A stretch of DNA of 64,000 nt. Origin: Candidatus Woesearchaeota archaeon. Its GTDB lineage: Archaea; Nanobdellota; Nanobdellia; SCGC-AAA011-G17; ARS1403. A program made the position numbers and the translations under genes. Below, in pieces: positions 6,437 through 63,872 of this stretch (within the stretch, counting starts at the first letter, position 1; each line of letters starts with the position of its first letter). The DNA lies in assembly GCA_016188065.1 (NCBI GenBank), contig JACPIN010000021.1, positions 1,954 through 65,953 of the forward strand, given 5' to 3'. The notes below the pieces were generated by a model. That model saw only the letters and a list, made by a program, of their open reading frames with translations, had not been told where the DNA came from and ran no database searches.

Positions 6437-7212
6437 TGTTTGATGAAAAAAGAGGGCAGAGCACTATTTTCATTATAGCTGGAATTGTTATTGTTATAGC
6501 TGCTGTTCTTGTTGTGTTCTTTATGCGTGAGAATGTGCAAATTGGCGAGAGGATAACAACTGCTCAAATAGAGCCAATTAAGGAATATGTTGAGGGATGC
6601 GTTAAAGATGAATTGAAGGAAAATTTGGAAAATAGACGAGAATTCGGAGGTAGAGACATTCCTGACTTTGCTGCCCGTAAACTTCAACCAGATTATCCAG
6701 ATTACAATGTTTTAAATGTTCCAAGCAATAATCTACCGTCGTTACTTGCTATTGAAAGAGAAATCTCTATTAAGATCAAATCTAATTTAGAAAATGTTTG
6801 TACCTTAGAAAGATTTAGAGATAATTTTAATGTTGAAAAGAAAGGAGATATAGGTGTCAGAGTTAATATCTCTGACAAACTTATTGAGGTCGATGTTAGC
6901 TACCCCATTGTTATTGAGAAAGCTAATTTCAAAACTGAGGTTAAGGATTTTAATGTGATTTATGAAAATAAATTTGGAAAAATATACGGTGTTGTTAGAG
7001 ATATCTTAAATGGATTTGATGCCGGAACTAATGAGCCTATTTCCAGCTACTGCTTTGGTTCTCCTGATTTAATTTGTAATGTTGTTGAAAATAGTGGAGG
7101 GTTGATGTTTGTTCAAGTTGGTGAGGTGGATAAATTTCCTAAACCAAGCGGAAATCGATTTGTTACAGGAGATGCAAGGGAGGTTTTTACATTTGTGATT
7201 GCTAAACCATGA
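6433..7212 (+). CDS. class III signal peptide (archaeal prepilin-like) protein, 259 aa
   Basis: 'EKRGQSTIFIIAGIVIVIAAVLVVFF': [KR]G-Q followed by a hydrophobic helix. Confidence 0.65.
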   Translation: MMFDEKRGQSTIFIIAGIVIVIAAVLVVFFMRENVQIGERITTAQIEPIKEYVEGCVKDELKENLENRREFGGRDIPDFAARKLQPDYPDYNVLNVPSNNLPSLLAIEREISIKIKSNLENVCTLERFRDNFNVEKKGDIGVRVNISDKLIEVDVSYPIVIEKANFKTEVKDFNVIYENKFGKIYGVVRDILNGFDAGTNEPISSYCFGSPDLICNVVENSGGLMFVQVGEVDKFPKPSGNRFVTGDAREVFTFVIAKP

Positions 7213-18265: not shown

Positions 18266-18388
18266 ATGAAAAAGTACCTTCTTCTTATTGAGGATGAGAA
18301 ACTTTGGGAAAAATTCAAAGAATCTATTAAAAACGATATCAATAGCGAAATTATTGAGATGATTAAAAAGAAGGTGAAAGAAAGATGA
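18266..18388 (+). CDS. small RHH-like protein, 40 aa; not in the ORF track
   Basis: Translates to 'MKKYLLLIEDEKLWEKFKESIKNDINSEIIEMIKKKVKER'; stop overlaps the next start (AGATGATT), as at 6299-6436. Confidence 0.5.
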   Translation: MKKYLLLIEDEKLWEKFKESIKNDINSEIIEMIKKKVKER

Positions 18389-20340: not shown

Positions 20341-23300
20341 GATTAAAAATAATTGCTTTGCTTATTGTACTTTTAATAGCAGGAGTTAACTTTCATGCAT
20401 CTATTGCTTTAGCCCAGATTCAAGGAAGCACTGGAAGTCCTCAATTTGGTAATGCTTATGACAGCGATAGTGACGGGATATGTGATGCGCCTAGAGGAAG
20501 TGCAAAGCATCAGGGACAAAGTGGATTTAGTTCACTTGGATGCAATGATAATGCATATGGTGATTTGTGCCCTGGTACCTTTTTGAATGATAGGCCTGTT
20601 GGAAGTAGCTCTACTAATAGCGGATGTGGTCCGAGCCAGACTGCTAGATTGATAAATTTTTGGAGTGTTTCGAGAGGCGAATTAACGCCTAAAACATTAA
20701 AAGTAAATTGGATTACCGATACTAGAAATGGTGTTTTGGTTTATCAAATAATTAACCTTATTAGAAATCCTGTATTTTCTAATCGCAAGATTGAGTTGAG
20801 AGATGTTAGTGTAAGCTGTGATTCTGGGACTGGGATAGATAAAACTAGTGGGCAGTATAGGGAAATTCCTGGGGGGTTTATTTCTGATGCTAGAATTGTT
20901 CCTGCGGATGATACGCAAAATGAGGGGAGAGCGATTCAGTTTAGTGTGAGACAGAGATCTGATCAAGATGTGAGAACTAAGAGTGCAATTGCCCTTGCTT
21001 CAGAAAGGATAAAAGGCATAGATGAAATTAAAACAACTTGTAGAATAACAATAAACCAATGTGAGAAAGATGGTAAAACAGGAGACTGTTTTCCAATGTA
21101 TCCTGCTGAACAAGATGAAATAGATTTTTTTATTCCTATTGATACTTTGGCTGTTCAGCCTCCAGAGTTTGCATTGGCTGCTGGCATTGATTTTGCTGAA
21201 AAGACAATTAAGATTACAGATGATTTGATTCATAAGTTTACTAAGATTTATCAATTTACATTAAAGTGGTGCAGTTATTCTATTGCTGCTGTATTGGCTA
21301 CTAAGTTTCTGAAATTTATTACCGGTGGTTTTGGTGATTTAGCCGAGTTGATTTGGTATGGCCCTGAAGGATTGAGGAGATTTGGTTTTGAAGAGAAGAG
21401 CTTTGTTATAAGTGGGAGAAGTATGTGTGCTGCTGCTCTCTGTCCTAAGAACTGGTGTAAGTTTGCCAATATTGAAACTGGTCAGAAGCAAGTTCAGGAA
21501 TATGTTGATTTGGATAAGGATGGAAAACCAGAGACACCTGTATGGGAGCAAGATGAGAAAGGGAATATTAAATATTATCCTGGAAAAGATGGAGGAATAA
21601 CAACTACTCCAATTCCCAAACTAACAAGTCAAAAAATTACATTAGGAAGCAAAACTGTAAATATTCAGGATAGTTTAATCTTGAGTGCTGGATGTGGCTG
21701 TATTAGTGGAATTTTAACTAATTTATATGAGATTAGAGCTATTGCCGATTCTTGGAGAACTTGTTTGCTTGAGGCTAAGACTGGAGGGGCTTATACTGCC
21801 AGATGTGATCAGTTATTGAATCATGGAATTTGCAAATTTGTTTTACAGGAGCTTGATTCTTTCCATGGAACTGATTTATTAAAGAGAGCGTTTAGCGTTG
21901 ACAAAGGGGGGGTTCTAGGTGATGGAGAAACTAGAGGTGCGACTGAAGATGCCAGAATAGCCCAAGGACTAAAAGAAAAAGTTAAAGACTCTGTAGATGA
22001 TGCTAAGAGGTTTGCTAAGGATGATTTGGTTGAATTAGGAATGGCAGCTGGCGGTGGTGTTTTGGGTTATAATGAATTGCAATTAGAGAGTACAATTTGT
22101 TCACTTGCAATATATCAAAGACTTCCACAGATAGATGCATTTACAAGATTTGATTTTAACAGACCTGTATTAAAAACAAGCATTTCATTAAACTGGGATT
22201 CTAAACCTTTATTCCAAACGCCTACAGGAGAAAGGATGTTTGAGTATAGTCTTGACTGGATGATTTTAGCTGGAAGGGATAATTTGAGATATGAAGTTTA
22301 TTTGGAATCTTTTGATGGAAAGAGAAGCCCGAGATTGGATAGACAAAGCGGTTATTTGAATAGAGCAGGTGATTATCATAGTGACTTTGTTCAGATTTTA
22401 GACACTACTGATTATACAAGGGCATGTGTTAGCATTCCTAATGAATTTCCTGAACCGAGATGTTTCCCAATTGGGAAGGGAGGAGACGATACTATTTTTG
22501 GCGAGTTTAAAGTATATGGTGTTGAGTTAGATACAGATAAGGATGGGATGCCGGATGAATGGGAATTAGAAATGGGATTTAAACCCGATGATGCAAGAGA
22601 TGCTGCTCAAGATGAAGACATGGATGGTTTGAGTAATTTGAGAGAATATTCTTTAGGAACAAATCCTAAATCTGCTGATGATCCTGGTAACAAGCCGCTT
22701 AGTGTCGAATTTGCTCGAAGTGATTGCAGGGCAGTGTTCAATAAAGACATTGAATTCCTTGGCAAGACTGAAATTATTCCTCGATATCAACTAGGAGATA
22801 TGATTGAAGTAAATCCGGTTAGTTTAGTAACTATAACAAGGCCTAGCGACGGGGTGCAGATAAAAGTAGAGATTACTGGTGAGGGTGTTAATTTCAATAA
22901 AATTGTTAGAATTAATGCTCATGATGTTGCCAATAATGCCCGGTTTGTTGTGTGGGGTATTCCCAAAATAGGAGCAGAGGTTCCTTATGGTGGTATGTAT
23001 AATATTAAATTTAGTCTAGTTAAAAGTGCTGCTCTGAGCGATCCGTTATGTGGAGATGAAAGAGGATTAACTATTAATTCAATAAGGGAAAAAAAGATTG
23101 TTATTTATGATCCGGCTTTTAGCGGTTGTTCTGATTTTGGCGGGCATGATATCTCAAGACAGCAAGCTTGTATTTCTGGAAACGGAAACGTTCAAATTAA
23201 AATTGATGAATGCGTAGCTGATGGAAAACTTGTTGAGTATTCTTGCAAGGAAAATCAATGCGTTTCACAACTTGTTGGATGCCCTACTGGAAGTGTTTGC

Positions 23301-23981
23301 CAGAATGGAAGGTGTACTTTAGCAAAAGAAGTTAAGATCCCTATTATCCCTATTCCAACTGAGCCTGCTAAAGTTATTCCTGTACCTACACTTATTCCTC
23401 CCGGACCTTATGCTACAGAGCCTACGACTGGTACTATCTTTGAACAAACCAAAACCAATCTGGGCTATCCCGGAGGAGAGACATTTAATTATGTTAGGAA
23501 TACTGTGAAAGAGATTTTTGGTGATTCAGCAGCTACAGCATTACCTTTAATATTAGGAATGATTACCCAGGAATCAAAGGGAAACAGAGAAACCAAGCCG
23601 TCTTCAAAAGGAGCAATCGGTTTAATGCAGATTATGCCTGACGCTCAGAGTGATGTTAACTCTTACTTAAGAGGAAAAGGGATACAAGCAACTAAGGAAC
23701 GGGGGATATGGCAGGACAATGTTTATATCGGAGTTTTGTATTTCAAATTTCAAATTGATAAATATAAAGATTTTAAGTCTCAAACTGACAACTATAATGA
23801 GGTTAAATTAGCATTGGCTGCTTATAATGCCGGACCTGGATTTGTCGACAGAGCATGTACTACTCTTAAAAATTTTGAAGAGTGCAAATCTTTCTTGCCG
23901 AAGGAAACTCAAAATTATGTACCTTCTGTTATGAAGCATGCAGAGGCATGGAGAGGAGAGCTTAAAATACCTGGTGTTTGA
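20337..23981 (+). CDS. 1214-aa secreted protein with TSP3-like Ca-binding repeats and a C-terminal lytic transglycosylase (SLT/GH23) domain
   Basis: Signal peptide; 'DTDKDGMPDEWE...DEDMDGLSNLREYSLGTNP'; 'GMITQESKGN', 'GAIGLMQIMP', 'LAAYNAGPGFV'. Confidence 0.8.
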   Translation: MRLKIIALLIVLLIAGVNFHASIALAQIQGSTGSPQFGNAYDSDSDGICDAPRGSAKHQGQSGFSSLGCNDNAYGDLCPGTFLNDRPVGSSSTNSGCGPSQTARLINFWSVSRGELTPKTLKVNWITDTRNGVLVYQIINLIRNPVFSNRKIELRDVSVSCDSGTGIDKTSGQYREIPGGFISDARIVPADDTQNEGRAIQFSVRQRSDQDVRTKSAIALASERIKGIDEIKTTCRITINQCEKDGKTGDCFPMYPAEQDEIDFFIPIDTLAVQPPEFALAAGIDFAEKTIKITDDLIHKFTKIYQFTLKWCSYSIAAVLATKFLKFITGGFGDLAELIWYGPEGLRRFGFEEKSFVISGRSMCAAALCPKNWCKFANIETGQKQVQEYVDLDKDGKPETPVWEQDEKGNIKYYPGKDGGITTTPIPKLTSQKITLGSKTVNIQDSLILSAGCGCISGILTNLYEIRAIADSWRTCLLEAKTGGAYTARCDQLLNHGICKFVLQELDSFHGTDLLKRAFSVDKGGVLGDGETRGATEDARIAQGLKEKVKDSVDDAKRFAKDDLVELGMAAGGGVLGYNELQLESTICSLAIYQRLPQIDAFTRFDFNRPVLKTSISLNWDSKPLFQTPTGERMFEYSLDWMILAGRDNLRYEVYLESFDGKRSPRLDRQSGYLNRAGDYHSDFVQILDTTDYTRACVSIPNEFPEPRCFPIGKGGDDTIFGEFKVYGVELDTDKDGMPDEWELEMGFKPDDARDAAQDEDMDGLSNLREYSLGTNPKSADDPGNKPLSVEFARSDCRAVFNKDIEFLGKTEIIPRYQLGDMIEVNPVSLVTITRPSDGVQIKVEITGEGVNFNKIVRINAHDVANNARFVVWGIPKIGAEVPYGGMYNIKFSLVKSAALSDPLCGDERGLTINSIREKKIVIYDPAFSGCSDFGGHDISRQQACISGNGNVQIKIDECVADGKLVEYSCKENQCVSQLVGCPTGSVCQNGRCTLAKEVKIPIIPIPTEPAKVIPVPTLIPPGPYATEPTTGTIFEQTKTNLGYPGGETFNYVRNTVKEIFGDSAATALPLILGMITQESKGNRETKPSSKGAIGLMQIMPDAQSDVNSYLRGKGIQATKERGIWQDNVYIGVLYFKFQIDKYKDFKSQTDNYNEVKLALAAYNAGPGFVDRACTTLKNFEECKSFLPKETQNYVPSVMKHAEAWRGELKIPGV

Positions 23982-25405: not shown

Positions 25406-25440
25406 TTTAATAATGAATGATTTCAGTCTTTTTAAATATT

Positions 25441-25537
25441 GCGGGAGACAGGATTCGAACCTGTGAAGGCACTAAGCCATATGGTTTCTTTGAGATTTAC
25501 CTAAGCCATACCCGTTTGGCCACTCCGGCACTCCCGC
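25441..25537 (-). tRNA. tRNA-Leu (anticodon UAG), type II, with a 14-nt intron at the canonical 37/38 position
   Basis: Hand fold: acceptor GCGGGAG/CTCCCGC, 3-bp D stem, anticodon stem TATGG/CCATA, loop CT-TAG-G|intron|A, variable arm GGC-TTAGT-GCC, T arm ACAGG-TTCGAAT-CCTGT. Confidence 0.85.
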
Positions 25538-28512: not shown

Positions 28513-28619
28513 TTATCATCTAATTGTAGTGAATTAAAATTTGCAGGAATAGCAATGTTTATATACCACTTTTTCTCTGTGTTTATAAAGTTTGTTATGT
28601 TTGAATAGGGGGTTTGTAT

Positions 28620-29543
28620 ATGGCTATAAGCTATGTTAAAAAATGTCCTGAATGTGGGGGCATTAATCTTGTTCTTGACAAAGAGAGGGGGGAAGTTCAT
28701 TGCAGAGATTGCGGTCTAGTAATTGAAGAAAAGATGGTGGACTTTGGCCAGGAATGGAGAGAGTTTGACCATGAGCAAGCCACTTCTAGAAGAAGAACTG
28801 GCGGGCCTATGACCTATACAAAATTTGATAGGGGCCTTGGTACTGATGTTGGGAAGAAAAGTGATATTTATCAATTAGGCGGAAAAGAGAGAAATAGATT
28901 TTTCAGGTTAAGAAAGTGGCAATACCGGATTTCTACCGCTATTGAAAGAAATTTGAAATTAGCTCTTGCCGAGTTGAAAAGAGTTTCTAGTTATTTAAAA
29001 CTGCCTAAAGCTGTTGAAGAGGAATCCGCTAGAATTTACACTCTTGCTGTGCAGAGAGGGCTAGTAAGAGGAAGAAGCATGGAAAGTGTTGTTGCTGGCG
29101 CTTTGTATGCTGCATGCAGGAGACACGAAGTTCCTAGAACCTTGGATGAATTAAGCGAGGCGTCTGGCATAGATAAAAAAGAGATTGGAAGAACTTATAG
29201 ATTTGTTACAAGAGAATTAGGGATTAGGATTTTGCCAAGCAATCCTGTTGACTATTTAGCTAGATTTGCGTCTGCTCTTAAATTAAATGCTGAGACTCAA
29301 TCGAGAGCTGTTGAAATACTTGAGAAAGCGCAGAATTCTGAGCTGACTTCTGGAAGGGGCCCTACTGGAATTGCTGCTGCTTCTTTGTATGTCGCTGCTT
29401 TAATGAACAATGAAAAAAGGACGCAGAGAGAGGTTGCCGACGTTGCAGGCGTCACTGAAGTTACAATCAGAAACAGATACAAGGAATTGCTAAAGAAATT
29501 AAAATTGGATGAGAAAGTAAAGAAGAAAGTTGGAAGGGGATAA
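28620..29543 (+). CDS. tfb: transcription initiation factor IIB (TFB)
   Basis: Zn ribbon 'CPECGG...HCRDCGLV', B-finger, two cyclin repeats ('GRSMESVVAGALYAACR', 'GRGPTGIAAASLYVAAL'). Confidence 0.92.
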   Translation: MAISYVKKCPECGGINLVLDKERGEVHCRDCGLVIEEKMVDFGQEWREFDHEQATSRRRTGGPMTYTKFDRGLGTDVGKKSDIYQLGGKERNRFFRLRKWQYRISTAIERNLKLALAELKRVSSYLKLPKAVEEESARIYTLAVQRGLVRGRSMESVVAGALYAACRRHEVPRTLDELSEASGIDKKEIGRTYRFVTRELGIRILPSNPVDYLARFASALKLNAETQSRAVEILEKAQNSELTSGRGPTGIAAASLYVAALMNNEKRTQREVADVAGVTEVTIRNRYKELLKKLKLDEKVKKKVGRG

Positions 29544-32733: not shown

Positions 32734-32763
32734 TTTAAATATCTGTTTGTGTTTTATTTTGCT

Positions 32764-35700
32764 ATGCTTAAAAGAGGCGTTTGGATTATTTTGTTTGTTT
32801 TGTTAAGCAGTTCTGTTTTAGCTTTGAGAGGTGATTTTGATGATAATGGATGTGTTAATCTTGAAGATTTTTTCTTGTTTGTAGATAATTTTCAGAAAGA
32901 AGTGAATAAAGATAATGAGAAATTTGACTTGGATGGAAACAAGAAAATAGATGTGGAGGATTTTTTTATTTTTGCTGAGGATTGGGATAAATGTGGTGAA
33001 GACGAAAATTTACTGATAGACCTTGGTTCTGAGCATGAAACATTTAACTTCTTAAAGAAGGACAGTACAGCTTTTATTTTAGGCGTACCAGTGACTTTAA
33101 ATGAGATTGATTTGTCAGAAAGAAAATATAATCTCTCTATAGACAATAAATCTTTTGATAATTTGGAAATCGGGAGGAAAATACAATTAGAGGATTTTAC
33201 CATCACAATTGAAGACTTTTTTGAAACTGAGATGTATTATCGCCTTAGAATAAATAATCCATTGATAAAAACTTTTGATTCTTTGGGTGTGGAATATGAC
33301 TTTTATGGTGGAATTTTAGGGAGTTCTACGTTAGTAGTGAATAGACGCGGAGAAATCATAAAAGATGACAGTGAACATTTCCCACAACTTAATGATTTCT
33401 ACAAATATAAAAATATCTTTTGGATTGTTTCAGAAAAAGATCTATTTGATGAACAAGAGCTAAAAAAATTTGCTTTGTATTTAGAACATGGAGGTAACCT
33501 TTTTATCTTTTTTGAAAGAGCATTGCCTATGTCAAATGAGGATTGGAAAAAATTATCTTTTTTACCTGATGTAAGTTTTTCTGATAATAGGGGAAAGATA
33601 TTTTCTATTATTCCTGGTGGGCAAATTGACCTTGTTAGGGGACTATATCTGCTTGAATTTAGTAAAGGTGAAGGCTTGGAAATTGTTGCATTTGGTGTAG
33701 GTCCTTTTGACTTGAGTAGGGAACAATATGATAATTTAAGCAAGGAGGAGTTATACTCTGGGGAAGTCTTAAGAGCTGATTATTTCGGTTCTTTAGTCTA
33801 TGCAGATATGTTTGGTGGATCTAAGGTCTTGATCAGCAGTTTAAATTTTGACAGAAGGATTCCTTTAGATTTTTCAAAACAACTTTTTAAAAACATTTTT
33901 GAATGGACGAAATCTCCAATTGAGATTTGTTCTGATCATATTGATAATAATGGAAATAAATTAGTCGATTGCAATGACATCGGTTGTTTTGCAAGTGATC
34001 AATGCAAATCCTGTATAGAAAAAGGTCTTTTTGAAAACGATTGTTCATTATTTTCTACCCCTATGATGTGCCAGAATCTTACAATGGTTCCTAACTGTCA
34101 GAAATGTGGCTGTTTGGGAGGACTTGCTTGCAGGGAGGATGGTCAGTGTGAAAGAATAAGTCCTGGGCCTGTTTTTAAAAACTTTACGTTCAGAAATAAT
34201 TATTTTATTAATGAATTCGCTTCGGATATTTTTCTTAGATTTGAAGTTATAGAGCCAGATAAGTTAAATAATGAAAAAGGGATTGCGGTACTTAGGGATG
34301 AGCAAGGCCATTTAAAAAAACTAAGCAATGACATTTATTGTAACAAAGAGAATCTTTTTTCTTCAGTTTATGTATGTAGCTTAGTTATTGAAAGAGATAC
34401 TATTTCCAAATCAGGAAAATATTCTATGAAGATTTCTTTAACTAATAAAGATGGTGTAGCGGCTGTAAGTGAATGGTTTGATTTTGAAGTGTTAGATCTC
34501 CCAAAATGCCAGGCTATCAATGATGCAATAGGTGTTAAACCAGAGAAAAATGCAGTTAAAGTAGCTTTTTATGCTGACAACTACGAAGACTTTGATAGTT
34601 TTAAGAATAGGGTGACAAACATCACTAGTAAAATGTTTAAGAAACATGAAATTTATAATAGTTATAAAGATAAATTTGATTTCTATGTTTCAGAATATCT
34701 TGAGAAAAATAACTGTGAAACTTACGTGAATAGGGATACCTATTTAAGATGTAATGATCTTTTTAATTCTTTATTTTATAGTCGAAGTTGTAAAGAAGAT
34801 GTTGGAGTTGTTTTTAGTAAAAGGGACTTTAGAAGCAATTCTGCTATTCATCTTAGTGTTCCTCCAGATAATATTTATGTTTTTGGTTCAGAAGTTGAGA
34901 AGGTTCTTGCTCATGAATTGGGACATAATCCCATAGGTTTAGGTGATGCTTATTGTGAAAATAAGAGATATACCACTCCTACACCATATCCGAATACATT
35001 TGAAACTTTAAAAAAATGCGAGGAGTATTCTAAGACACATTTAGGTAGTAGGGATTGTGTTCAGATTTGTGAAGGAGACTCTGATTATAATATTGAACAA
35101 GGAGGTTATAAAATGAACCACACCGGGCCAATTATGATGATCTATGGTGGTGATTTCAATCTTGTTGAACAAATGAGAGTCAACTGGTTTTTTGATTGTT
35201 GTAGCCCTAACTCTTGCAGTGAGCTTCCTAAATATTGTTTTAGTAATATTTGTGGTAGTTGTCCATCTAAAGAATATGATCTCGATGAGAGTGCTTTGCC
35301 TCCTTGTGCAGAGGTTGTTTGTAAGGCAGCCAAAACTGATGAGGATATAGATGAAGATGGAAGTCCAAGAAAATTAGATTGCGGTATTAACGATTATGCA
35401 GTCCATCCAGGAAAACCTGTTGTTCCATTTATAGATGTGGAAAATAGGTTAAGCGAGAGCTGTGCTAAGACTGATTATAATTGCGATGGTAACATAGAGG
35501 AGCAATGCCATTTTACTCCTGAGTGTCCTGATTTATATAGAAGTAAATGTATGAATGATCGTGAATATATTGTTGAAACAGCTGTAACAAAAGAGAAATG
35601 TTGCGGTGGTTGTAGCGGAGAAATAGATGAATGGAAGGTTGTTCGAAAGGAAAGTTGCGATGATGGAGAGGTTTGTAGAGAAGTGACAGAAAAGAATGGA

Positions 35701-35805
35701 GGAGTATTTGCTAAGTGCAAAGGTAATTTTGAAGGATCCACAACGGAAACAAGACCTGTTATACCTACTGCTGCTACAAATGAGACGGGAGGAGGCGGAA
35801 AGTAA
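32764..35805 (+). CDS. large secreted Cys-rich protein: N-terminal dockerin-like EF-hand pair plus M64-like zinc metalloprotease module
   Basis: Signal peptide; 'GDFDDNGCVNLEDFFLFVDNF' and 'FDLDGNKKIDVEDFFIFAEDW'; 'LAHELGHNPIGLGDAY'. Confidence 0.7.
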   Translation: MLKRGVWIILFVLLSSSVLALRGDFDDNGCVNLEDFFLFVDNFQKEVNKDNEKFDLDGNKKIDVEDFFIFAEDWDKCGEDENLLIDLGSEHETFNFLKKDSTAFILGVPVTLNEIDLSERKYNLSIDNKSFDNLEIGRKIQLEDFTITIEDFFETEMYYRLRINNPLIKTFDSLGVEYDFYGGILGSSTLVVNRRGEIIKDDSEHFPQLNDFYKYKNIFWIVSEKDLFDEQELKKFALYLEHGGNLFIFFERALPMSNEDWKKLSFLPDVSFSDNRGKIFSIIPGGQIDLVRGLYLLEFSKGEGLEIVAFGVGPFDLSREQYDNLSKEELYSGEVLRADYFGSLVYADMFGGSKVLISSLNFDRRIPLDFSKQLFKNIFEWTKSPIEICSDHIDNNGNKLVDCNDIGCFASDQCKSCIEKGLFENDCSLFSTPMMCQNLTMVPNCQKCGCLGGLACREDGQCERISPGPVFKNFTFRNNYFINEFASDIFLRFEVIEPDKLNNEKGIAVLRDEQGHLKKLSNDIYCNKENLFSSVYVCSLVIERDTISKSGKYSMKISLTNKDGVAAVSEWFDFEVLDLPKCQAINDAIGVKPEKNAVKVAFYADNYEDFDSFKNRVTNITSKMFKKHEIYNSYKDKFDFYVSEYLEKNNCETYVNRDTYLRCNDLFNSLFYSRSCKEDVGVVFSKRDFRSNSAIHLSVPPDNIYVFGSEVEKVLAHELGHNPIGLGDAYCENKRYTTPTPYPNTFETLKKCEEYSKTHLGSRDCVQICEGDSDYNIEQGGYKMNHTGPIMMIYGGDFNLVEQMRVNWFFDCCSPNSCSELPKYCFSNICGSCPSKEYDLDESALPPCAEVVCKAAKTDEDIDEDGSPRKLDCGINDYAVHPGKPVVPFIDVENRLSESCAKTDYNCDGNIEEQCHFTPECPDLYRSKCMNDREYIVETAVTKEKCCGGCSGEIDEWKVVRKESCDDGEVCREVTEKNGGVFAKCKGNFEGSTTETRPVIPTAATNETGGGGK

Positions 35806-51875: not shown

Positions 51876-52088
51876 TTAGTTTTTAAGTTTAACTATTTTG
51901 AAAAGTCCTTTATCTCCAGATATAATCTCTTTTATTTTATCTTTTAATTTAGTATTAATTAAATAACTTACTGTCGTTTTAGCAAGATTTGTTTCTCTAC
52001 TAATTTGAGAGATATATGTTCCTTCTGGATGTTTTTTCAGCACGTCCATTATTTTTTTGATTTTGTTTTCATCTGCTCTTCTGACCAT
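51876..52088 (-). CDS. small winged-helix DNA-binding protein
   Basis: 'GTYISQISRETNLAKTTVSYLI'. Confidence 0.5.
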   Translation of the reverse strand: MVRRADENKIKKIMDVLKKHPEGTYISQISRETNLAKTTVSYLINTKLKDKIKEIISGDKGLFKIVKLKN

Positions 52089-52140
52089 AATTGTACATAC
52101 GACCAAAAACTATATAAATATTAAGTTTATTATTGCACAT

Positions 52141-52932
52141 ATGAACAGAAATAAATACAAAAGACTTTCTCAGGAAGAGAAAGACGGGATTAAGGAATTT
52201 ACTTTGAAAGGTAAAAGCCTTAGACAGGTCTCTAAGATCTTAGGTATTGGAATAACTACTATCTATTATCATGTTAGAAAATTTAAGCCGAAACAATTTA
52301 AGAAAATGGAGATAACTCTGAAGGATTTCCAATTAGGAGAGTTGATTGGTTCATTTGTTGGAGATGGGAATTTTTATTACGATAGAAATGGAAGAAGTAG
52401 AAGGTATGTGATAAGATATTATCTTTCTTATGAAGATGATCGCCCTTATTCGAGGTATTTAGTGAAACTTCTTAAAAATATGAATCTAAATACTAGAGTT
52501 TTATGTAGAAAAAATCAAGGAAGATTAAGCTCAATAGAGATTAGAATCTATTCTAAAGAATTTTATAATCTCCTAAGGGAGTATATCACATGGGAAGGAA
52601 TTAAAACTTATTCTGTCAGATTATTGAGAGGAATTAATGATTATAGCGAAGATTTTTTGAAAGGATTTATTCGTGGACTTATGGATACAGATGGGTTTGT
52701 TGAAAATTATAACCTCTCTCTTGGTGTTACTTCTAAACCACTTATACTCAATTTTGAGGATATTTTAAGTAAATTTGATATTCAATATAAGCTTACAATA
52801 AGAAAGAGAGATAGCACTAGAAAAGATTTGTTTTTATGTAGGATTCATAGAGTAAGTCTTGAATTGTATAGGGATTTATTTGGTTTTAGTAATCCAAGGA
52901 AAATGAATGGTCTGCTGAATATCTTAAAATGA
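52141..52932 (+). CDS. free-standing LAGLIDADG homing-endonuclease-like protein with an N-terminal HTH
   Basis: 'LIGSFVGDGNF' and 'FIRGLMDTDGFV' (two LAGLIDADG motifs); N-terminal 'SLRQVSKILGIGITTIYYHV'. Confidence 0.75.
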   Translation: MNRNKYKRLSQEEKDGIKEFTLKGKSLRQVSKILGIGITTIYYHVRKFKPKQFKKMEITLKDFQLGELIGSFVGDGNFYYDRNGRSRRYVIRYYLSYEDDRPYSRYLVKLLKNMNLNTRVLCRKNQGRLSSIEIRIYSKEFYNLLREYITWEGIKTYSVRLLRGINDYSEDFLKGFIRGLMDTDGFVENYNLSLGVTSKPLILNFEDILSKFDIQYKLTIRKRDSTRKDLFLCRIHRVSLELYRDLFGFSNPRKMNGLLNILK

Positions 52933-60488: not shown

Positions 60489-60767
60489 TTATAAGCTTTC
60501 GGCTGGATACAATAAAGAGCAAATTTTTTCGTGTATGGTTAAATACTTCTCTTGAAAGTCCTTAGAAACTCTGCTAAACAGCTGGCTTGGGCAAGCCTTA
60601 TTTGGCGCATATTTTTGTTTCATAATATTTAAAATGGTCTCTTGTCCGGGGGTTCTTTGCCCGGTAGGTACTGGTACAATCCCAACTAACTGCTCAAGAT
60701 CCCTATTAAACTCTTTATCTAGAAGATTTCTAAATAAATTATCGTAATAACCTTGAAGATTTACCAT
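60489..60767 (-). CDS. hypothetical protein
   Basis: ORF only. Confidence 0.4.
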   Translation of the reverse strand: MVNLQGYYDNLFRNLLDKEFNRDLEQLVGIVPVPTGQRTPGQETILNIMKQKYAPNKACPSQLFSRVSKDFQEKYLTIHEKICSLLYPAESL

Positions 60768-60898
60768 ATTTGTATTATGGGCTTATCCTTTTTAAAGTTT
60801 ATTGTGATAGAGACTTATTTTCAAGACTTTCTTCGATTATTATACCTATAAGACTATTTGCCATTTTGATTATTCTTTATCTAATTTTATAGCCTTAT

Positions 60899-61000
60899 CT
60901 AATTCTCATCTAAGTAGCCGAGCATGAATCCTGCATCTCCTGCTTCTATATCGTCATTATCCAAAGCTTTTTCTATATATTTTTTTGAGTAGATGTTCAT
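60899..61000 (-). CDS. acidic micro-protein, 33 aa, paralog of 58327..58458
   Basis: Translates to 'MNIYSKKYIEKALDNDDIEAGDAGFMLGYLDEN'; GGAGGT SD upstream. Confidence 0.45.
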   Translation of the reverse strand: MNIYSKKYIEKALDNDDIEAGDAGFMLGYLDEN

Positions 61001-61002
61001 TT

Positions 61003-61113
61003 TTAACCTCCGCAATATATGCATTTTTTCTTTGATATCTGCGCCATTTTTGTTGGAAGCTTCATCAACTGCCTGCTCAGCAGGTCTCCGATTGTCCGAG
61101 GGTCTAGAGCCAT
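61003..61113 (-). CDS. micro-ORF, 36 aa
   Basis: Translates to 'MALDPRTIGDLLSRQLMKLPTKMAQISKKKCIYCGG'; GGAGGTGA SD upstream. Confidence 0.4.
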   Translation of the reverse strand: MALDPRTIGDLLSRQLMKLPTKMAQISKKKCIYCGG

Positions 61114-61247
61114 TTTTTCACCTCCTTTTTCCAATAATTCTCTACAGATTTTTGCGTTGTTGAAGAAATAAAATCGAGAAGCTGCGCTTCCCGATCTCTG
61201 GCGGCATATTCATGCCATGTTAGATATGTTCTTTTTAACCATCTCAT
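61104..61247 (-). CDS. micro-ORF, 47 aa
   Basis: Translates to 'MRWLKRTYLTWHEYAARDREAQLLDFISSTTQKSVENYWKKEVKKWL'; GGAGGTG SD upstream; overlaps the next ORF. Confidence 0.4.
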   Translation of the reverse strand: MRWLKRTYLTWHEYAARDREAQLLDFISSTTQKSVENYWKKEVKKWL

Positions 61248-61373
61248 TTTGGCACCTCCCTGGCTTATATTCTTTAGAAGCATCTCTTGTTTATATCTGG
61301 TGCGAGGGTATGTGGCAGATATGTCAGTTGAATGGAAAATATATATTGGAAAATATACTTTAAAAATTAATAA

Positions 61374-62738
61374 TTATTGCGGTATTTTACTTCTAAGGCA
61401 ATTATTAACAAAATCACTTAACTCAGAATTATTCCTGCCAATGTGGCTTATTATCTTATTGATAGCATCTGCATATATTTGAAACACTCTTGATTCGGAT
61501 AATGTTCTGCCCAGAATTCCCGAATGACCTATCTGTTTAATAGTCATGTTTTGAAAACAATATGCCCTAAACACTTTTCTTTCATCTCCGCTGAGCTTTC
61601 TAACTGCTTCCACAATCTTTTCTGACCTTTCTTTATAATATAGATTATCTATTGGTGTTAATGATCTGTAGTCATCCACAGCATTAATAACTTCTATACT
61701 ATCTCCTAAAGTTAAGGGCTTGTCATCTCTATCATTAAGCAATATGGAATCTAATGATATTTCTTGTATGAATGCGAGGGAGGATATCTGCCTTAATTCT
61801 GGTTGGGAGATTCCGAAAATTTCAGCTGCTTCTGATTCATCTTTCGTTTTGTTATATTGTGTAAGTTTATGCCTTTCTTCTCTGCTTAAGATATCAAAGT
61901 TTCTTAACTCATCAAAAATTGCGCCTATGATTCTTGGAGCTGTCCATGATGTTACTCTCACACCAATTGAAGGATCAAATTTCCCCAGTGCTTCTATAAA
62001 TCCGGTTATGCCTGCCATGTAATAATCATTTTTCTCTAAGATCTTGTTTTCCATGGGAACTTTTTTAAGAATATCAGTTAGTAATTTCCAGATAAATCCT
62101 TTATATTTTGGAATTATGACATTAAGCAGAGAAGGGTCTTTTGTAGTTGTGTAAATTTGGATAATCTTGTTAAATGCCGGATTGTCTTCAGGATATTCGT
62201 CTACTTTTTTTGTTTCGCTATATCTTTTTTTTAGTTCTGAAAGATTTGAATATGCTCTGACAAGGTTTTCCAGATATGTATCGAGTATGTTTTTTTTTGA
62301 TTCTTTATGTATGGAATTAAATGCGCTTGTAAAAACATCTTTAGAATTTGAATATTGCTGTCTTGTAATAAATGCTATTTCTTCAACTAAAGACTCTTCG
62401 CCATTTTTAAGTTGTTTGGTATGATTCGAATTTAGAGCGTATTCTAATTTCCTTTTTTCGGACTGGAAAAAACTTTGTGCAATTCTATCTATTCTTTCAA
62501 AGTCAAATCCATATGCCATCATTGGAATATAATTAGTAAAATAAGCCAGCTGATCGCCATTCAGGCTGCTTAGAAGAATTCTTTCAGTTGGAGTTATAAA
62601 ATCTGGATATATTTTCCATGCCGAGAATGCAGTTAAAAAATCTGGAGAATTATCGAAATGTATTAGAACTTTATTATCAAGTGTTGCCAAACATTTTTTT
62701 ATCTTATCTAAAGATACCCCATTATTTTCTCTTGACAT
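61374..62738 (-). CDS. sigma-70 family (FliA/sigma-28-like) protein with an ~230-aa N-terminal extension
   Basis: Region 2 'GFIEALGKFDPSIGVRVTSWTAPRIIGAIFDELRNFD', region 3 'AAEIFGISQPELRQI', region 4 'LSGDERKVFRAYCFQNMTIKQIG...LSESRVFQIYADAINKI'. Confidence 0.7.
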   Translation of the reverse strand: MSRENNGVSLDKIKKCLATLDNKVLIHFDNSPDFLTAFSAWKIYPDFITPTERILLSSLNGDQLAYFTNYIPMMAYGFDFERIDRIAQSFFQSEKRKLEYALNSNHTKQLKNGEESLVEEIAFITRQQYSNSKDVFTSAFNSIHKESKKNILDTYLENLVRAYSNLSELKKRYSETKKVDEYPEDNPAFNKIIQIYTTTKDPSLLNVIIPKYKGFIWKLLTDILKKVPMENKILEKNDYYMAGITGFIEALGKFDPSIGVRVTSWTAPRIIGAIFDELRNFDILSREERHKLTQYNKTKDESEAAEIFGISQPELRQISSLAFIQEISLDSILLNDRDDKPLTLGDSIEVINAVDDYRSLTPIDNLYYKERSEKIVEAVRKLSGDERKVFRAYCFQNMTIKQIGHSGILGRTLSESRVFQIYADAINKIISHIGRNNSELSDFVNNCLRSKIPQ

Positions 62739-62795
62739 CCTTATACGGAATTGGAACGATTTCTTTAAAAGCTTTGTTGATTTCTCTTACTTTAA

Positions 62796-63872
62796 ATGAC
62801 AGTGGATTATAAATCAAAACCTATAATGAAGCTTGAAGAGGTTATGGAAAATCAAGCTGATTTGTTGGAGCATAGTGTATATGAAATGATTAAAAGCGTT
62901 TATGAAGATCCTGATTTACACGCCAAAGCTAAATTTGAAGAAATAAGATCCGGAATTAAGAAATCACTTTCTTCTTTAGTTGCATTGAATGTGCGCCCGC
63001 GTTTTTATGCAGCATTGTACGGGATAATGGCTCCTTATTATAGTGAGGAACAGCGAGAAAGGATATGGGAATTTTTTAGTAGAGTTGCATCTAATGAACT
63101 AACTTATATTGTTAATGCGGATAAGGTCTTTGCAGAATTGCCTGATAAGAAATTAGAGGATAATTTAGTAAGGGCTGCTGGGAAAGAAAATCAAAAAGCA
63201 CTTCTGCCAAAGAATGACTTGAATCCTGAAGATAAGCCTGGGGATTCTTTAGAATGGAAAATAGCAGCTGCTGATATTTACAAAGCAGTTATTAGACCTG
63301 AATATCTTGATAAAAATGGAAAAATATTACCTTCTAAATATGTAATTTTAAACAATGTTAGTATATCTTTGAGAGGTGATTTATTAAGAAAAGTTGACGG
63401 TTCAAAGGGGTATTATGTTGATGAGAAGAACATACAGAAAGTTGTTGATTATTTGTGCAAAACAAAACCAGATTTAACTCGTCGACCAGCTGAATTACCA
63501 ACTGCTAAAACTATTTCTGAAAAACCGATTCCTAAAAAGACATCTAGTAGAAGAGAAGAATTTAAATCTGATTCTAGAAATATCATCAATTATCAAGTAG
63601 CGAGGAAGAATGCCAATACTTCAAAAAGAAATACTGTAACTTCTGGAGCATCTTCCGGAGATTTGTGGGGATTTGCAGTGATTGAGAAAGCAATATTAGC
63701 GGAGATGCCAAATCTTATGAAACAAGAAATTAAAATCGCTAGAGATGATATAGAAGAGATCTTGGGGAGATCAGCTATTGGCGAAGTTGATGATGATAAA
63801 GTCAAATGGTCATATAAATCAGCAATAGAGCCAAATTGGTATAGGATACTTGAATTATTTTCAAATAAATAA
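62796..63872 (+). CDS. hypothetical protein, divergent from the sigma-like gene
   Basis: ORF only, 358 aa. Confidence 0.5.
   Translation: MTVDYKSKPIMKLEEVMENQADLLEHSVYEMIKSVYEDPDLHAKAKFEEIRSGIKKSLSSLVALNVRPRFYAALYGIMAPYYSEEQRERIWEFFSRVASNELTYIVNADKVFAELPDKKLEDNLVRAAGKENQKALLPKNDLNPEDKPGDSLEWKIAAADIYKAVIRPEYLDKNGKILPSKYVILNNVSISLRGDLLRKVDGSKGYYVDEKNIQKVVDYLCKTKPDLTRRPAELPTAKTISEKPIPKKTSSRREEFKSDSRNIINYQVARKNANTSKRNTVTSGASSGDLWGFAVIEKAILAEMPNLMKQEIKIARDDIEEILGRSAIGEVDDDKVKWSYKSAIEPNWYRILELFSNK

What the first reader, a model, noticed from the sequence alone, without database searches (positions are those of the whole stretch)
61374..62738. Bacterial-type sigma-70 family (FliA-like) protein encoded in an archaeal genome
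The C-terminal ~220 residues show ordered sigma regions. Region 2 is 'GFIEALGKFDPSIGVRVTSWTAPRIIGAIFDELRNFD' (compare FliA-type 'KFDP..G..F.TYA..RI.GAI.DELR..D'). A region 3-like HTH is 'AAEIFGISQPELRQI'. Region 4 is 'LSGDERKVFRAYCF.NMTIKQIG...LSESRVFQIYADAINKI'. An ~230-aa unrelated N-terminal extension precedes them. The surrounding sequence is clearly archaeal (aIF5A, L40e and TFB-dependent transcription machinery), and archaeal RNAP does not use sigma factors. Possibilities include a domesticated DNA-binding regulator, a gene carried by a mobile element or virus, or, speculatively given the murein-targeting proteins in this window, a factor acting on a bacterial partner's RNA polymerase.
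Basis: partly seen in the sequence, partly recalled or inferred. Interest (0 to 1): 0.75.

Follow-up and report, generated by a model that had tools for sequence, protein, structure and literature searches.

The report
Bacterial-type sigma factor gene in Woesearchaeon
A gene for a bacterial flagellar-type sigma factor with an extra N-terminal domain really does sit in the chromosome of a tiny DPANN (Woesearchaeal) archaeon, inside a small inserted gene island; such genes have been reported before and nobody knows what they do without a bacterial RNA polymerase.

Summary
The ORF is real: 61374-62738, minus strand, 454 aa. Residues ~186-436 are a sigma-70-family protein of the FliA/WhiG type. 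Evidence: profiles (TIGR02937 65.6 bits, cutoff 42.9; WhiG model E=3e-28; Pfam region 4 above cutoff, region 2 1 bit below), PDB sequence matches (WhiG, sigma-28) and predicted fold.

The host DNA is Woesearchaeal (DPANN). Gene order up to ~61.25 kb matches three related MAGs, and independent assemblies span both junctions, so this is not a chimera.

Relative to those MAGs the gene lies in a ~3.2-kb, four-gene insertion between orc1/cdc6 and a conserved trio of small genes. A 14-bp direct repeat bounds the insertion, and no integrase is present. The gene has the genome's usual TATA box at about -30.

The ~185-aa helical N-terminal extension is conserved in only four clusters among 1.84 billion representatives. 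One of these also sits beside an archaeal gene (aEF-2).

Sigma-70 genes in Woesearchaeota were already reported (Castelle et al. 2021), with the mechanism unknown.

Best reading: a horizontally acquired FliA-derived gene kept as an archaeal DNA-binding regulator. That mechanism is inferred, not shown. Interest is moderate.

The parts
61374..62738 (-). 454-aa ORF: sigma-70-family (FliA/WhiG-like) protein with an N-terminal extension
   Evidence: ORF; profiles; PDB; fold. An identical protein is found on three independent Logan assemblies.
62184..62738 (-). N-terminal extension, aa 1-185: all-helical and family-specific, with motifs SPDF[LI]TA...W and F..[YW]IP[ML]......F[ED].ID
   Evidence: Conserved with P0002, P0155 and the upstream part of the P0003 ORF. 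No Pfam, PDB or other homologue. pLDDT is 40-70.
61839..62183 (-). Sigma region 1.2-like helix plus region 2, aa 186-300 (core-binding 2.1/2.2 and the -10-binding 2.3/2.4 equivalents)
   Evidence: Pfam r2 23.0 bits; pLDDT about 89-98. Conserved D238, G243, G246, A250, R269, G272, D276, R279, R286 and R289 are kept.
61749..61838 (-). Truncated region 3-like segment, aa 301-330, with an 11-residue deletion relative to FliA and to the other family members
   Evidence: Column-by-column comparison with 113 bacterial-type homologues. No Pfam r3 hit, although relative P0155 has one at 22.3 bits.
61431..61631 (-). Sigma region 4, aa 370-436, with the helix-turn-helix
   Evidence: Pfam Sigma70_r4 25.6 bits, above the 24.1 cutoff; pLDDT 94-98. 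K401 and R417 match E. coli sigma-28 K208 and R220, which contact the -35 element.
61506..61523 (-). 2+2-residue insertion in the region 4.2 HTH turn (aa 406-411, SGILGR; the inserted residues are 406-407 and 410-411)
   Evidence: Absent from all 113 bacterial-type homologues and from P0155; shared by P0001, P0002 and P0003.
62764..62769 (.). Palindromic TATA-like box TTTAAA, 31-32 nt from both divergent start codons (sigma ATG at 62738 and the 358-aa ORF ATG at 62796)
   Evidence: Sequence. In this window TATA-like hexamers peak at -28 to -32 from start codons, e.g. FtsZ -30 and TFB -32. Relatives P0002 and P0155 have the same box.
61410..61423 (.). Left copy of the 14-bp direct repeat AAAATCACTTAACT. 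The right copy is 64641-64654, just beyond the window on locus L003, at the last codons of orc1/cdc6.
   Evidence: A repeat of 14 bp or more arose in 0.6% of Markov simulations and in 1 of 83 real-sequence control window pairs.
62796..63872 (+). Divergently transcribed 358-aa ORF of unknown function, cargo of the same insertion
   Evidence: No Pfam, NCBIfam, PHROG or PADLOC hit. No counterpart in 80 Woesearchaeal loci.
61249..61409 (.). Native orc1-to-small-gene spacer, displaced by the insertion. It holds a conserved motif at 61299-61330 and a TATA-like box at 61289-61299. The last 12 codons and stop codon of the sigma ORF (61374-61409) lie inside it.
   Evidence: Motif shared with the equivalent spacers of L009, L010, L012 and L058.
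60899..61248 (-). Three small conserved genes (about 47, 43 and 41 aa, with GGAGG ribosome-binding sites) that mark the end of synteny with related Woesearchaeal MAGs
   Evidence: tblastn hits in L009, L010 and L012 in the same order, directly after orc1/cdc6.

Best explanation
SHOWN:
- The gene encodes a genuine sigma-70-family protein whose nearest relatives outside its own small family are bacterial flagellar FliA sigma factors.
- It lies in the chromosome of a Woesearchaeal (DPANN) archaeon.
- It sits inside a ~3.2-kb, four-gene insertion between orc1/cdc6 and a conserved small-gene trio. The insertion is absent from three related MAGs and is bounded by a 14-bp direct repeat.
- It carries the TATA-at-about-minus-30 promoter layout used by this genome's housekeeping genes.
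- It belongs to a very small, deeply diverged family that shares a ~185-aa helical N-terminal extension. At least one other member is also next to an archaeal gene.

INFERRED:
- A bacterial FliA-type gene was acquired horizontally, probably through an integrating element of which this island is a remnant.
- It gained the N-terminal domain and has been maintained in DPANN archaea.
- The host has an archaeal TBP/TFB-dependent polymerase, so the protein most likely works as a sequence-specific DNA-binding transcription regulator, not as a canonical sigma.
- Region 4 (HTH; both sigma-28 -35 contact residues retained) and the basic face of region 2 would bind a two-part DNA site. Binding would repress by occluding BRE/TATA or the start site, or activate by recruitment.
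- The N-terminal helical domain would serve as the regulatory or oligomerisation module, in place of the missing anti-sigma factor.
- Changed base-reading residues and the lengthened HTH turn predict a target sequence different from the sigma-28 consensus.
For: Identity:
- Profiles, PDB matches and fold.
- The nearest non-family homologues, P0005 and P0006, sit in bacterial flagellar clusters (flhB-flhA-flhF-flhG-fliA).

Host and continuity:
- Archaeal markers.
- 80 FtsZ loci, nearly all titled Woesearchaeota, Nanoarchaeota or Nanoarchaeia, best match 84%.
- Synteny with L009, L010 and L012 through the small genes.
- Logan assemblies from other runs cover 61154-63284 and 61670-64899 at 100% identity.

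Insertion:
- In L009, L010 and L012, orc1 is followed closely (93 bp in L009) by the small genes. In the window genome they are about 3.35 kb apart.
- The 14-bp direct repeat lies at both borders.
- Island GC is 0.316 against 0.369 for the flank.

Expression signals:
- TATA-like box at -31, typical of the window's genes. Relatives P0002 and P0155 have it too.

Maintained family:
- P0001 and P0002 are 36% identical over the full length, including the extension.
- P0155 is adjacent to archaeal aEF-2 (TIGR00490, 885 bits) carrying an intein.
- P0001 keeps 21 of the 30 real columns that are at least 80% conserved in bacterial homologues.
- The four members cluster on the sigma domain alone.

DNA-binding residues (E. 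coli sigma-28 numbering first):
- Identical: R74, R84, R94, K208 and R220.
- Conservative changes: R58K and T69S. R95H is a weaker one. R34K comes from a less certain alignment of the 218-229 region.
- Changed: Q63I, Q73P and R98T. H26K is also changed, with the same alignment caveat.
Against: - No functional data, and no DNA target identified.
- Regions 2.1/2.2 bind the bacterial beta-prime clamp helices in bacteria. Their conservation is not explained by a pure DNA-binding role.
- Free sigma factors generally bind promoter DNA poorly without core (established knowledge).
- The 11-residue loss in region 3 is unique to this member and could signal decay.
- No integrase or other mobility gene lies in the island. 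The 14-bp repeat is only moderately improbable (p about 0.006-0.012).
- Contexts of P0002 and P0003 are unknown because the contigs are short.
- Only identical copies of this gene were found, so selection on it cannot be measured directly.
Confidence: 0.4

Rival explanations
1. The protein still works through an RNA polymerase, but the archaeal one. Region 2 would dock on the clamp coiled-coil of Rpo1N/A', the homologue of the bacterial beta-prime clamp helices and the site used by TFE and Spt4/5. The protein would then act as an alternative specificity factor or as a polymerase inhibitor.
For: Region 2.1/2.2 positions that are near-invariant in bacterial FliA are retained across a family whose members are only 25-36% identical: D238, G243, G246, A250, F254, D255 and P256. 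Castelle et al. also left open a role alongside TBP/TFB/TFE. That the clamp coiled-coil is universally conserved is established knowledge, not tested here.
Against: No docking or co-variation evidence. The beta flap that holds sigma4 and the sigma3.2 path in the RNA exit channel differ in archaeal polymerase (established knowledge). Region 3 is truncated and the 3.2 linker carries an insertion. No archaeal RNA polymerase subunit lies in the window to inspect.
Confidence: 0.12
2. A passenger gene of a degraded integrated element with no current function in the archaeon, that is, a slowly decaying horizontal-transfer remnant.
For: It lies in a lineage-specific island with no mobility genes left. 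It has an 11-residue deletion in region 3 and substitutions at several otherwise conserved positions: L247F, F262V, A266T, Y394C and H422Y. It keeps the fewest conserved columns, at the bottom of the bacterial range.
Against: The 454-codon ORF is intact and has a genome-typical promoter. The whole architecture, including the non-sigma extension, is conserved at 36% identity in P0002 and is recognisable in P0003 and P0155. This implies long-term purifying selection on the family.
Confidence: 0.15
3. An effector delivered to a bacterial partner or host, where it redirects or blocks the bacterial RNA polymerase.
For: The sigma2 core-binding and sigma4 regions are FliA-like. The window also encodes a 1214-aa protein with a murein lytic transglycosylase (SLT) domain, hinting at contact with bacteria.
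Against: The helical N-terminal extension does not look like a signal peptide, though no predictor was run. No secretion-system genes were seen among the island ORFs and nearby genes scanned. Known DPANN hosts are archaea (established knowledge). The region 3 deletion and HTH insertion would likely compromise holoenzyme function.
Confidence: 0.04
4. Artefact: a bacterial or CPR fragment mis-joined to an archaeal contig, or a mis-binned contig.
For: The gene lies within ~2.6 kb of the window's 3' end, and its best named homologues are bacterial.
Against: Conserved Woesearchaeal genes lie on both sides: the small-gene trio at 60899-61248 and the orc1/cdc6 C-terminus at 64659-64898. Both junctions are covered by separate assemblies from other sequencing runs at 100% identity. 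Tetranucleotide composition of the island is typical of the contig, at the 52nd percentile. The promoter is archaeal-type.
Confidence: 0.02

Closest known systems
Bacterial FliA (sigma-28) and WhiG: group 3 sigma-70-family factors (NCBIfam TIGR02479, NF004935; PDB 6pmi, 6pfv, 1rp3)
   Same: It has the same order of region 1.2-like helix, region 2, region 3 and region 4. These are the best-scoring models and best PDB hits, at 27-31% identity. 21 of 30 highly conserved columns are kept, as are both sigma-28 -35 contact residues (K208, R220) and three arginine contacts to the -10 element.
   Different: It scores far below the family cutoffs (89 against 189.6 bits). It has a ~185-aa N-terminal extension, an 11-aa deletion in region 3, a 6-aa insertion in the 3.2 linker and a 2+2-aa insertion in the region 4.2 HTH turn. 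The -10 contact residues Q63, Q73 and R98 are replaced. There are no flagellar genes or FlgM/RsiG anti-sigma nearby, and the host is an archaeon without a bacterial RNA polymerase.
Sigma-70 genes reported in DPANN archaea, especially Woesearchaeota (protein family fam00359; Castelle et al. 2021, PMC8204110)
   Same: Same phenomenon: a sigma-70-family gene on a verified Woesearchaeal scaffold, no anti-sigma factor, function unknown.
   Different: The paper gives no subfamily, architecture or locus detail, and the two supplement files held as text contain no mention of fam00359. The sigma gene I met by chance in another Woesearchaeal MAG (L057, 750 aa) is RpoD-like and shows no significant pairwise BLASTP similarity to this one; their N-terminal extensions are unrelated. 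The FliA-like family here therefore looks like a separate and much rarer acquisition: four clusters among 1.84 billion representatives.
Bacteriophage-encoded sigma factors (PHROG 351; Bacillus phage SigF-like proteins in BFVD)
   Same: Sigma-70-family proteins carried on mobile DNA, often with extra N-terminal domains. PHROG 351 E=2.5e-19; Foldseek BFVD hits down to E=4e-8.
   Different: All matches are to phages of bacteria and are no closer than cellular FliA. No relative was found in 2.9 million viral contigs or 50,697 phage genomes beyond generic sigma similarity. The island has no viral hallmark gene.
Archaeal regulators with a sigma region 4 / LuxR-type HTH only (e.g. Tfx, Bat/HTH_10, 'LuxR solos'; PMC5413776)
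   Same: They are a precedent for a sigma4-like HTH acting as an ordinary transcription factor in archaea.
   Different: Those proteins carry only the region 4-like HTH. This one keeps regions 1.2 to 4 in sigma order, including the polymerase-binding region 2.

Membership tests
Sigma-70 family (superfamily level) | Profile match to region 2 and region 4 in the right order | tested here: met
   TIGR02937 65.6 bits against a cutoff of 42.9, spanning aa 206-430. Pfam r4 25.6 against a cutoff of 24.1; Pfam r2 23.0 against 24.0, 1 bit short.
Sigma-70 family (superfamily level) | Sigma2 and sigma4 helical folds | tested here: met
   AlphaFold2 pLDDT is 85-98 in these regions. The 50 Foldseek PDB hits listed are sigma factors or complexes containing one, best E=2.9e-9.
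Sigma-70 family (superfamily level) | Binds bacterial core RNA polymerase and directs promoter-specific initiation | not testable with these tools
   This needs biochemistry. The host is archaeal.
FliA/WhiG subfamily (TIGR02479) | Score at or above the curated subfamily cutoff | tested here: not met
   89.2 bits against a cutoff of 189.6. The equivalog models for WhiG and FliA are also far below cutoff.
FliA/WhiG subfamily (TIGR02479) | FliA/WhiG models are the best-scoring sigma models, and the nearest homologues are FliA | tested here: met
   The four top NCBIfam hits are WhiG/FliA models. The nearest non-family hits, P0005 and P0006, lie in bacterial flagellar gene clusters; P0004 and P0167 (a member of the P0008 cluster) are named FliA by their sources.
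FliA/WhiG subfamily (TIGR02479) | Complete region 3 | tested here: not met
   11 residues of the first region 3 helix are missing, and there is no Pfam Sigma70_r3 hit.
FliA/WhiG subfamily (TIGR02479) | Sigma-28 promoter-contact residues (E. coli H26, R34, R58, Q63, T69, Q73, R74, R84, R94, R95, R98, K208, R220) | tested here: inconclusive
   5 are identical, about 4 are conservative changes and 4 are changed, including Q63 and Q73. The mapping of H26 and R34 is less certain.
FliA/WhiG subfamily (TIGR02479) | Genomic association with flagellar or developmental genes and a cognate anti-sigma (FlgM or RsiG) | tested here: not met
   The neighbours are unknown ORFs, a small wHTH gene and orc1/cdc6. 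No flagellar or anti-sigma families were found.
DPANN sigma-70 set of Castelle et al. 2021 (fam00359) | Sigma-70-annotated gene on a scaffold whose other genes are phylogenetically DPANN | tested here: met
   Synteny and 84% FtsZ identity to Woesearchaeota/Nanoarchaeota MAGs.
DPANN sigma-70 set of Castelle et al. 2021 (fam00359) | Sequence membership in that protein cluster | not testable with these tools
   The family's sequences are not in the held supplements.
Integrated mobile element / genomic island | Present/absent polymorphism between conserved flanking genes in related genomes | tested here: met
   orc1 and the small-gene trio are adjacent in L009, L010 and L012 but about 3.35 kb apart in the window genome.
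Integrated mobile element / genomic island | Flanking direct repeats (att or target duplication) | tested here: inconclusive
   A 14-bp exact repeat lies at both borders, unique in the window and in the ~1.3 Mb of DNA in the 91 loci fetched. Chance probability is about 0.6-1.2%.
Integrated mobile element / genomic island | Integrase, transposase or other mobility gene | tested here: not met
   None of the four island ORFs matches recombinase, PHROG or PADLOC families.

The most novel reading that the evidence does not exclude
A sigma-70-family protein has been adapted to work with an archaeal RNA polymerase. It would dock through its conserved region 2 on the Rpo1N clamp coiled-coil and supply promoter specificity, or block TFE/Spt5. 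This would be the first functional bridge between bacterial sigma-dependent and archaeal TBP/TFB-dependent initiation.
Probability: 0.08. Interest if true: 0.9.

Novelty: new variant of a known kind. Interest (0 to 1): 0.5.

Why it matters
Archaeal transcription initiation uses TBP, TFB and TFE and is thought never to use sigma factors. A full-length sigma that is kept intact in several DPANN lineages and expressed from archaeal-type promoters therefore needs an explanation. It may be the repurposing of a whole sigma as an ordinary DNA-binding regulator, or an unexpected interaction with archaeal polymerase.

This locus gives a concrete test case:
- a defined protein family with a diagnostic N-terminal domain;
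- a defined insertion event next to orc1/cdc6;
- specific residue changes that predict altered DNA specificity.

The general phenomenon is already published, so the gain is in detail and testability, not in discovery.

Tried and rejected
Searches that found nothing useful:
- Word-indexed homologue search with the full protein: only a self-hit. With the 4-member alignment: only P0001, P0007 and bacterial sigmas. With the N-terminal domain alignment: nothing, not even the query, so that negative is weak.
- GTDB genome scan with family-specific peptide patterns: no relative. The 4-sequence alignment was too divergent to use.
- Viral-contig scans with the family alignment, the protein and the neighbouring ORF: no relative, or region 4-only hits. 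The metagenome scan re-found only the P0002 contig.
- Phage genome tblastn: four weak generic sigma hits, and none for the 358-aa ORF.
- PADLOC: no defence-system match for the sigma or the 358-aa ORF.
- The N-terminal domain against Pfam and PDB: only chance hits to designed helical proteins.

Candidates and similarities rejected:
- P0151/P0156 looked like a family member but is a bacterial SigB-type sigma next to RsbV/RsbW-like genes.
- Similarity between the 358-aa neighbour and the C-terminal extension of P0155: none.
- Similarity between the island's 110-aa wHTH protein and the Orc1 winged-helix domain: not significant.

Motifs, repeats and composition:
- Sigma-28 promoter consensus scan: 15 hits with up to 2 mismatches against 8.4 expected, and 2 against 0.34 with up to 1 mismatch. 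This is at most a weak lead.
- Repeat search in the island for candidate operators: only short, chance-level matches.
- Tetranucleotide composition does not mark the island as foreign.

Methods:
- The first AlphaFold run with 4 sequences was poor (pLDDT 58.8). It was replaced by a 117-sequence run.
- The first neighbour-joining script timed out, and the second had a distance overflow.
Full report
**1. The observation**

An ATG-initiated ORF of 454 codons occupies 61374-62738 on the minus strand. Several lines of evidence identify it as a sigma factor.
- Pfam finds Sigma70_r4 at aa 380-429 (25.6 bits, cutoff 24.1). It finds Sigma70_r2 at aa 234-279 (23.0 bits, 1 bit under the cutoff).
- NCBIfam ranks WhiG (NF004935, E=3e-28) and FliA_WhiG (TIGR02479, E=3.2e-25, 89 bits) first. 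The sigma-70 superfamily model TIGR02937 passes its curated cutoff (65.6 against 42.9 bits) across aa 206-430.
- Against PDB sequences the best matches are Streptomyces WhiG (6pfv, E=3e-14) and E. coli FliA (6pmi, E=8e-13), aligned over aa 191-435.
- An AlphaFold2 model built with 117 homologues has pLDDT 85-98 in sigma2 (aa ~190-300) and sigma4 (aa ~370-440). All of its top Foldseek PDB hits are sigma factors: SigB, sigma-32, WhiG, sigma-S and sigma-28.

Three details need correcting.
- The sigma part starts at about aa 186 with a region 1.2-like helix.
- The extension is therefore about 185 aa, not ~230.
- 'Region 3' is only a remnant (see section 5).

**2. The host is an archaeon and the join is real**

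Archaeal genes in the window:
- TFB
- Spt5 (NGN+KOW), ribosomal protein L11, prefoldin, ZPR1, diphthamide synthase, FKBP26, FtsZ plus SepF, and glycine--tRNA ligase (dimeric glyS type)
- a 98-nt tRNA that Rfam detects and ARAGORN does not

A GTDB scan with the window's FtsZ returned 80 loci. Nearly all are titled Woesearchaeota, Nanoarchaeota or Nanoarchaeia, and the best is 84% identical (L009, MAG ARS1286).

In L009, gene order matches the window from ZPR1, SepF, prefoldin, L11, Spt5, FtsZ, FKBP and the M50 protease through the metallophosphoesterase and a 92-aa ORF. It continues into three very small genes at 60899-61248. L010 and L012 share the FtsZ-proximal genes and two of those small genes.

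Beyond the window, a Logan contig from another run (L003, 100% identical) extends to position 64899. It ends in the C-terminus of an Orc1/Cdc6 protein. Two further independent Logan contigs, L001 and L002, carry the identical gene. L002 spans 61154-63284 and so crosses from the conserved small gene into the sigma ORF.

Conserved Woesearchaeal genes therefore lie on both sides, and both junctions are reproduced in separate assemblies. The chimera or mis-binning explanation can be set aside.

**3. The gene sits in a small insertion**

In L009, L010 and L012, orc1/cdc6 is followed closely by the first small gene (93 bp in L009). In the window genome the orc1 stop codon is at 64638 and that small gene starts at about 61248. 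The extra DNA holds four ORFs:
- the sigma gene (minus strand)
- a divergent 358-aa ORF (plus strand, 62796-63872)
- a 110-aa winged-helix-like ORF
- a 90-aa ORF

None of the three partners has an informative family match.

A 14-bp exact direct repeat, AAAATCACTTAACT, lies at 61410-61423 and at 64641-64654. At both sites it encodes Leu-Ser-Asp-Phe: the last four codons of orc1, and codons 440-443 of the sigma ORF. The 14-mer occurs nowhere else in the window or in the ~1.3 Mb of DNA in the loci fetched. A repeat of this length between the two border regions arose in 0.6% of Markov simulations and in 1 of 83 real-sequence control pairs.

The stretch between the left repeat and the small gene (61249-61409) contains a motif at 61299-61330 that is shared with the equivalent spacers of L009, L010, L012 and L058. 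It is therefore the native spacer.

The simplest reading is a 3.23-kb insertion into the 3' end of orc1. The last 12 codons of the sigma ORF would then read through into native spacer sequence. Two points keep the 'mobile element' label provisional:
- There is no integrase, transposase or viral hallmark gene.
- Tetranucleotide composition is unremarkable, although island GC is lower (0.316 against 0.369).

**4. Expression signals are archaeal**

Across the window's genes, TATA-like hexamers pile up 28-32 nt upstream of start codons: 29 of 66 occurrences fall in the -35 to -26 bins. Examples are FtsZ at -30, TFB at -32 and diphthamide synthase at -28. This pattern is expected for leaderless archaeal mRNAs.

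The 57-bp gap between the sigma gene and the divergent 358-aa ORF holds a single palindromic TTTAAA (62764-62769). It lies 31 nt from one start codon and 32 nt from the other. The relatives P0002 and P0155 have TTTTAAA boxes at the same distance.

**5. A tiny, diverged family with its own extension**

The exhaustive HMMER search of 1.84 billion representatives gave 3630 hits at E<=1e-3, almost all of them roughly 230-290-aa bacterial-type sigmas at about 30% identity. Only one non-self hit was below 1e-30: P0002 (469 aa, 36% identical over the full length), from a 0.1-um groundwater fraction.

Other members:
- P0003 shares the extension. Its N-terminal part is encoded in frame upstream of the annotated TTG start.
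- P0007/P0155 also share it.
- P0155 lies next to an archaeal aEF-2 (TIGR00490, 885 bits) that contains an intein.

The extension is predicted to be all-helical (pLDDT 40-70) and has no Pfam, PDB or other homologue. On the sigma domain alone the four proteins cluster in a neighbour-joining tree. Bootstrap support is modest: 64% for P0001, P0002 and P0003 together, and 30% with P0155 added.

The nearest proteins outside the family are true bacterial FliA. P0005 follows flhB-flhA-flhF-flhG, and P0006 sits among flagellar/chemotaxis-type and type IV pilus genes. Others are named FliA in Bacteroidota and Kryptobacter.

The HMM built from the sigma domain finds one sigma gene in the window. It finds only one in the 80 Woesearchaeal loci, in L057, and that one is a 750-aa RpoD-like protein. 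That protein shows no significant pairwise BLASTP similarity to this one, and their N-terminal extensions are unrelated.

**6. What is kept and what is changed in the sigma domain**

P0001 keeps 21 of the 30 genuine alignment columns that are at least 80% conserved in 113 bacterial-type homologues. The bacterial mean is about 27.5 and the minimum about 21.

Kept positions include the region 2.1/2.2 signature (D238, G243, G246, A250, F254-D255-P256), R269, G272, D276, R279, R286, R289, and in region 4 L382, Y393, I403, E415-S416-R417 and Q420.

Published E. coli sigma-28 DNA contacts (bioRxiv 10.1101/2020.01.02.893370) were mapped through the 6pmi alignment.
- Identical: R74, R84, R94 (duplex and template-strand -10 contacts), K208 and R220 (-35 contacts).
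- Conservative changes: R58K and T69S. R95H is a weaker one.
- Changed: Q63I, Q73P and R98T.
- H26 and R34 map to lysines, with less certainty.

Structural departures:
- an 11-residue deletion in the first helix of region 3, unique to P0001
- a 6-residue insertion in the 3.2 linker, shared with P0002
- a 2+2-residue insertion that lengthens the turn of the region 4.2 HTH, shared by P0001, P0002 and P0003 and absent from all 113 bacterial-type sequences

**7. Mechanism**

Shown: identity, host, insertion, promoter type and family conservation.

Inferred: the cell's polymerase is the archaeal TBP/TFB type. TFB and Spt5 are in the window, and no bacterial polymerase gene was seen in the ORFs scanned. 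The protein therefore cannot act as a conventional sigma in cis.

The retained HTH and basic DNA-contact residues, together with changed base-reading residues and a remodelled HTH turn, fit a sequence-specific DNA-binding regulator with a new target. The family-specific N-terminal helical domain is a candidate regulatory or oligomerisation module, in the absence of any anti-sigma. Castelle et al. also found no anti-sigma. I put this reading at about 0.4.

The main unexplained point is the conservation of the polymerase-binding region 2.1/2.2. This keeps alive the idea that the protein contacts the homologous clamp coiled-coil of archaeal polymerase (about 0.1).

Other readings:
- Decay remnant, about 0.15. 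The conserved full-length architecture across a deeply diverged family argues against it.
- Effector against a bacterial partner's polymerase, about 0.04.
- Assembly artefact, about 0.02.

**8. Comparison with what is known, and novelty**

Castelle et al. 2021 (PMC8204110) reported sigma-70 genes in DPANN (fam00359, 'particularly prevalent in Woesearchaeota'). They ruled out mis-binning, found no anti-sigma factors and left the mechanism open. The phenomenon is therefore known.

New here:
- the FliA/WhiG affinity of this particular gene
- its rare family with a diagnostic N-terminal domain and HTH insertion
- archaeal-type promoters at three members
- a dated insertion event next to orc1/cdc6

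At the superfamily level the protein is a member of the sigma-70 family. It fails the FliA/WhiG subfamily cutoffs and lacks a complete region 3 and the flagellar or anti-sigma context. It should therefore be called FliA-derived, not a FliA.

I rate it a new variant of a known kind, with interest 0.5.

Noticed in passing
window 61299-61330 (also L009 ~5625-5655, and the equivalent spacers in L010, L012 and L058): A conserved ~30-nt motif (window: CAACTGACATATCTGCCACATACCCTCGCACC on the minus strand) lies in the spacer between orc1/cdc6 and the first small gene, followed by a TATA-like box. It is shared by four related Woesearchaeal MAGs, so it is independent of the sigma gene. It could be a regulator site or an origin-recognition box next to orc1.
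   Followed up: partly
L057:5104-7356 (minus strand); MAG contig JAZDLQ010000111.1: Another Woesearchaeal MAG encodes a 750-aa protein whose C-terminal ~235 aa are RpoD-like (NF004208, 287 bits). It has a ~500-aa N-terminal extension unrelated to the one in the window's protein. The gene lies directly beside the FKBP and FtsZ genes. It was the only sigma gene found in the 80 FtsZ loci, and it is probably of the kind reported by Castelle et al. 2021.
   Followed up: partly
window 60775-60801 (minus strand): TAAACTTTAAAAAGGATAAGCCCATAA matches the sigma-28 promoter consensus TAAA-N15-GCCGATAA with one mismatch. It overlies the TATA box and 5' end of the 92-aa ORF that starts at 60767, about 600 bp from the sigma gene. 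The GCCCATAA half is not conserved in L009. Two such hits occur in the window against 0.34 expected, so this is a weak lead only.
   Followed up: partly
window 20337-23981 (+); also 7209-9326, 9328-14397, 18385-20340 and 32749-35805: A 1214-aa protein ends in a lytic transglycosylase (SLT) domain. It lies in a run of very large ORFs (705, 1689, 651 and 1018 aa) with no Pfam match at all. These may be cell-surface or host-interaction proteins.
   Followed up: no
window 52057-52932 (+): A free-standing LAGLIDADG plus HTH ORF lies between prefoldin and ribosomal protein L11. It has no counterpart in any of the 80 related loci, so it may be another lineage-specific insertion (a homing-endonuclease-like gene).
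   Followed up: no
window 25440-25537 (minus strand): Rfam finds a 98-nt tRNA (47 bits) that ARAGORN misses. This is consistent with an intron-containing archaeal tRNA.
   Followed up: no
window 28614-29543 (+): The TFB protein gets a Pfam Sigma70_r4 whole-protein score of 24.9 bits over aa 266-297 of its second cyclin repeat. This reflects general HTH similarity and is a reminder that a region 4 hit alone is not diagnostic of a sigma factor.
   Followed up: no
L091:70-348 and L008:3041-5188: In L091 the N-terminal homologous region of P0003 is in frame upstream of the annotated TTG start, but it has no ATG, GTG or TTG after the preceding stop. This could mean a non-canonical start, a sequencing error or a 5' truncation. 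P0155 carries an extra ~300-aa C-terminal extension with no family match. Its 90%-identity cluster-mate P0007 instead ends in a leucyl-tRNA synthetase fragment, so that contig is probably chimeric.
   Followed up: partly
window 60899-61248 (minus strand): Three tightly packed micro-genes (about 47, 43 and 41 aa), each preceded by a GGAGG-type ribosome-binding site, are conserved after orc1/cdc6 in related MAGs. None has a family match.
   Followed up: partly
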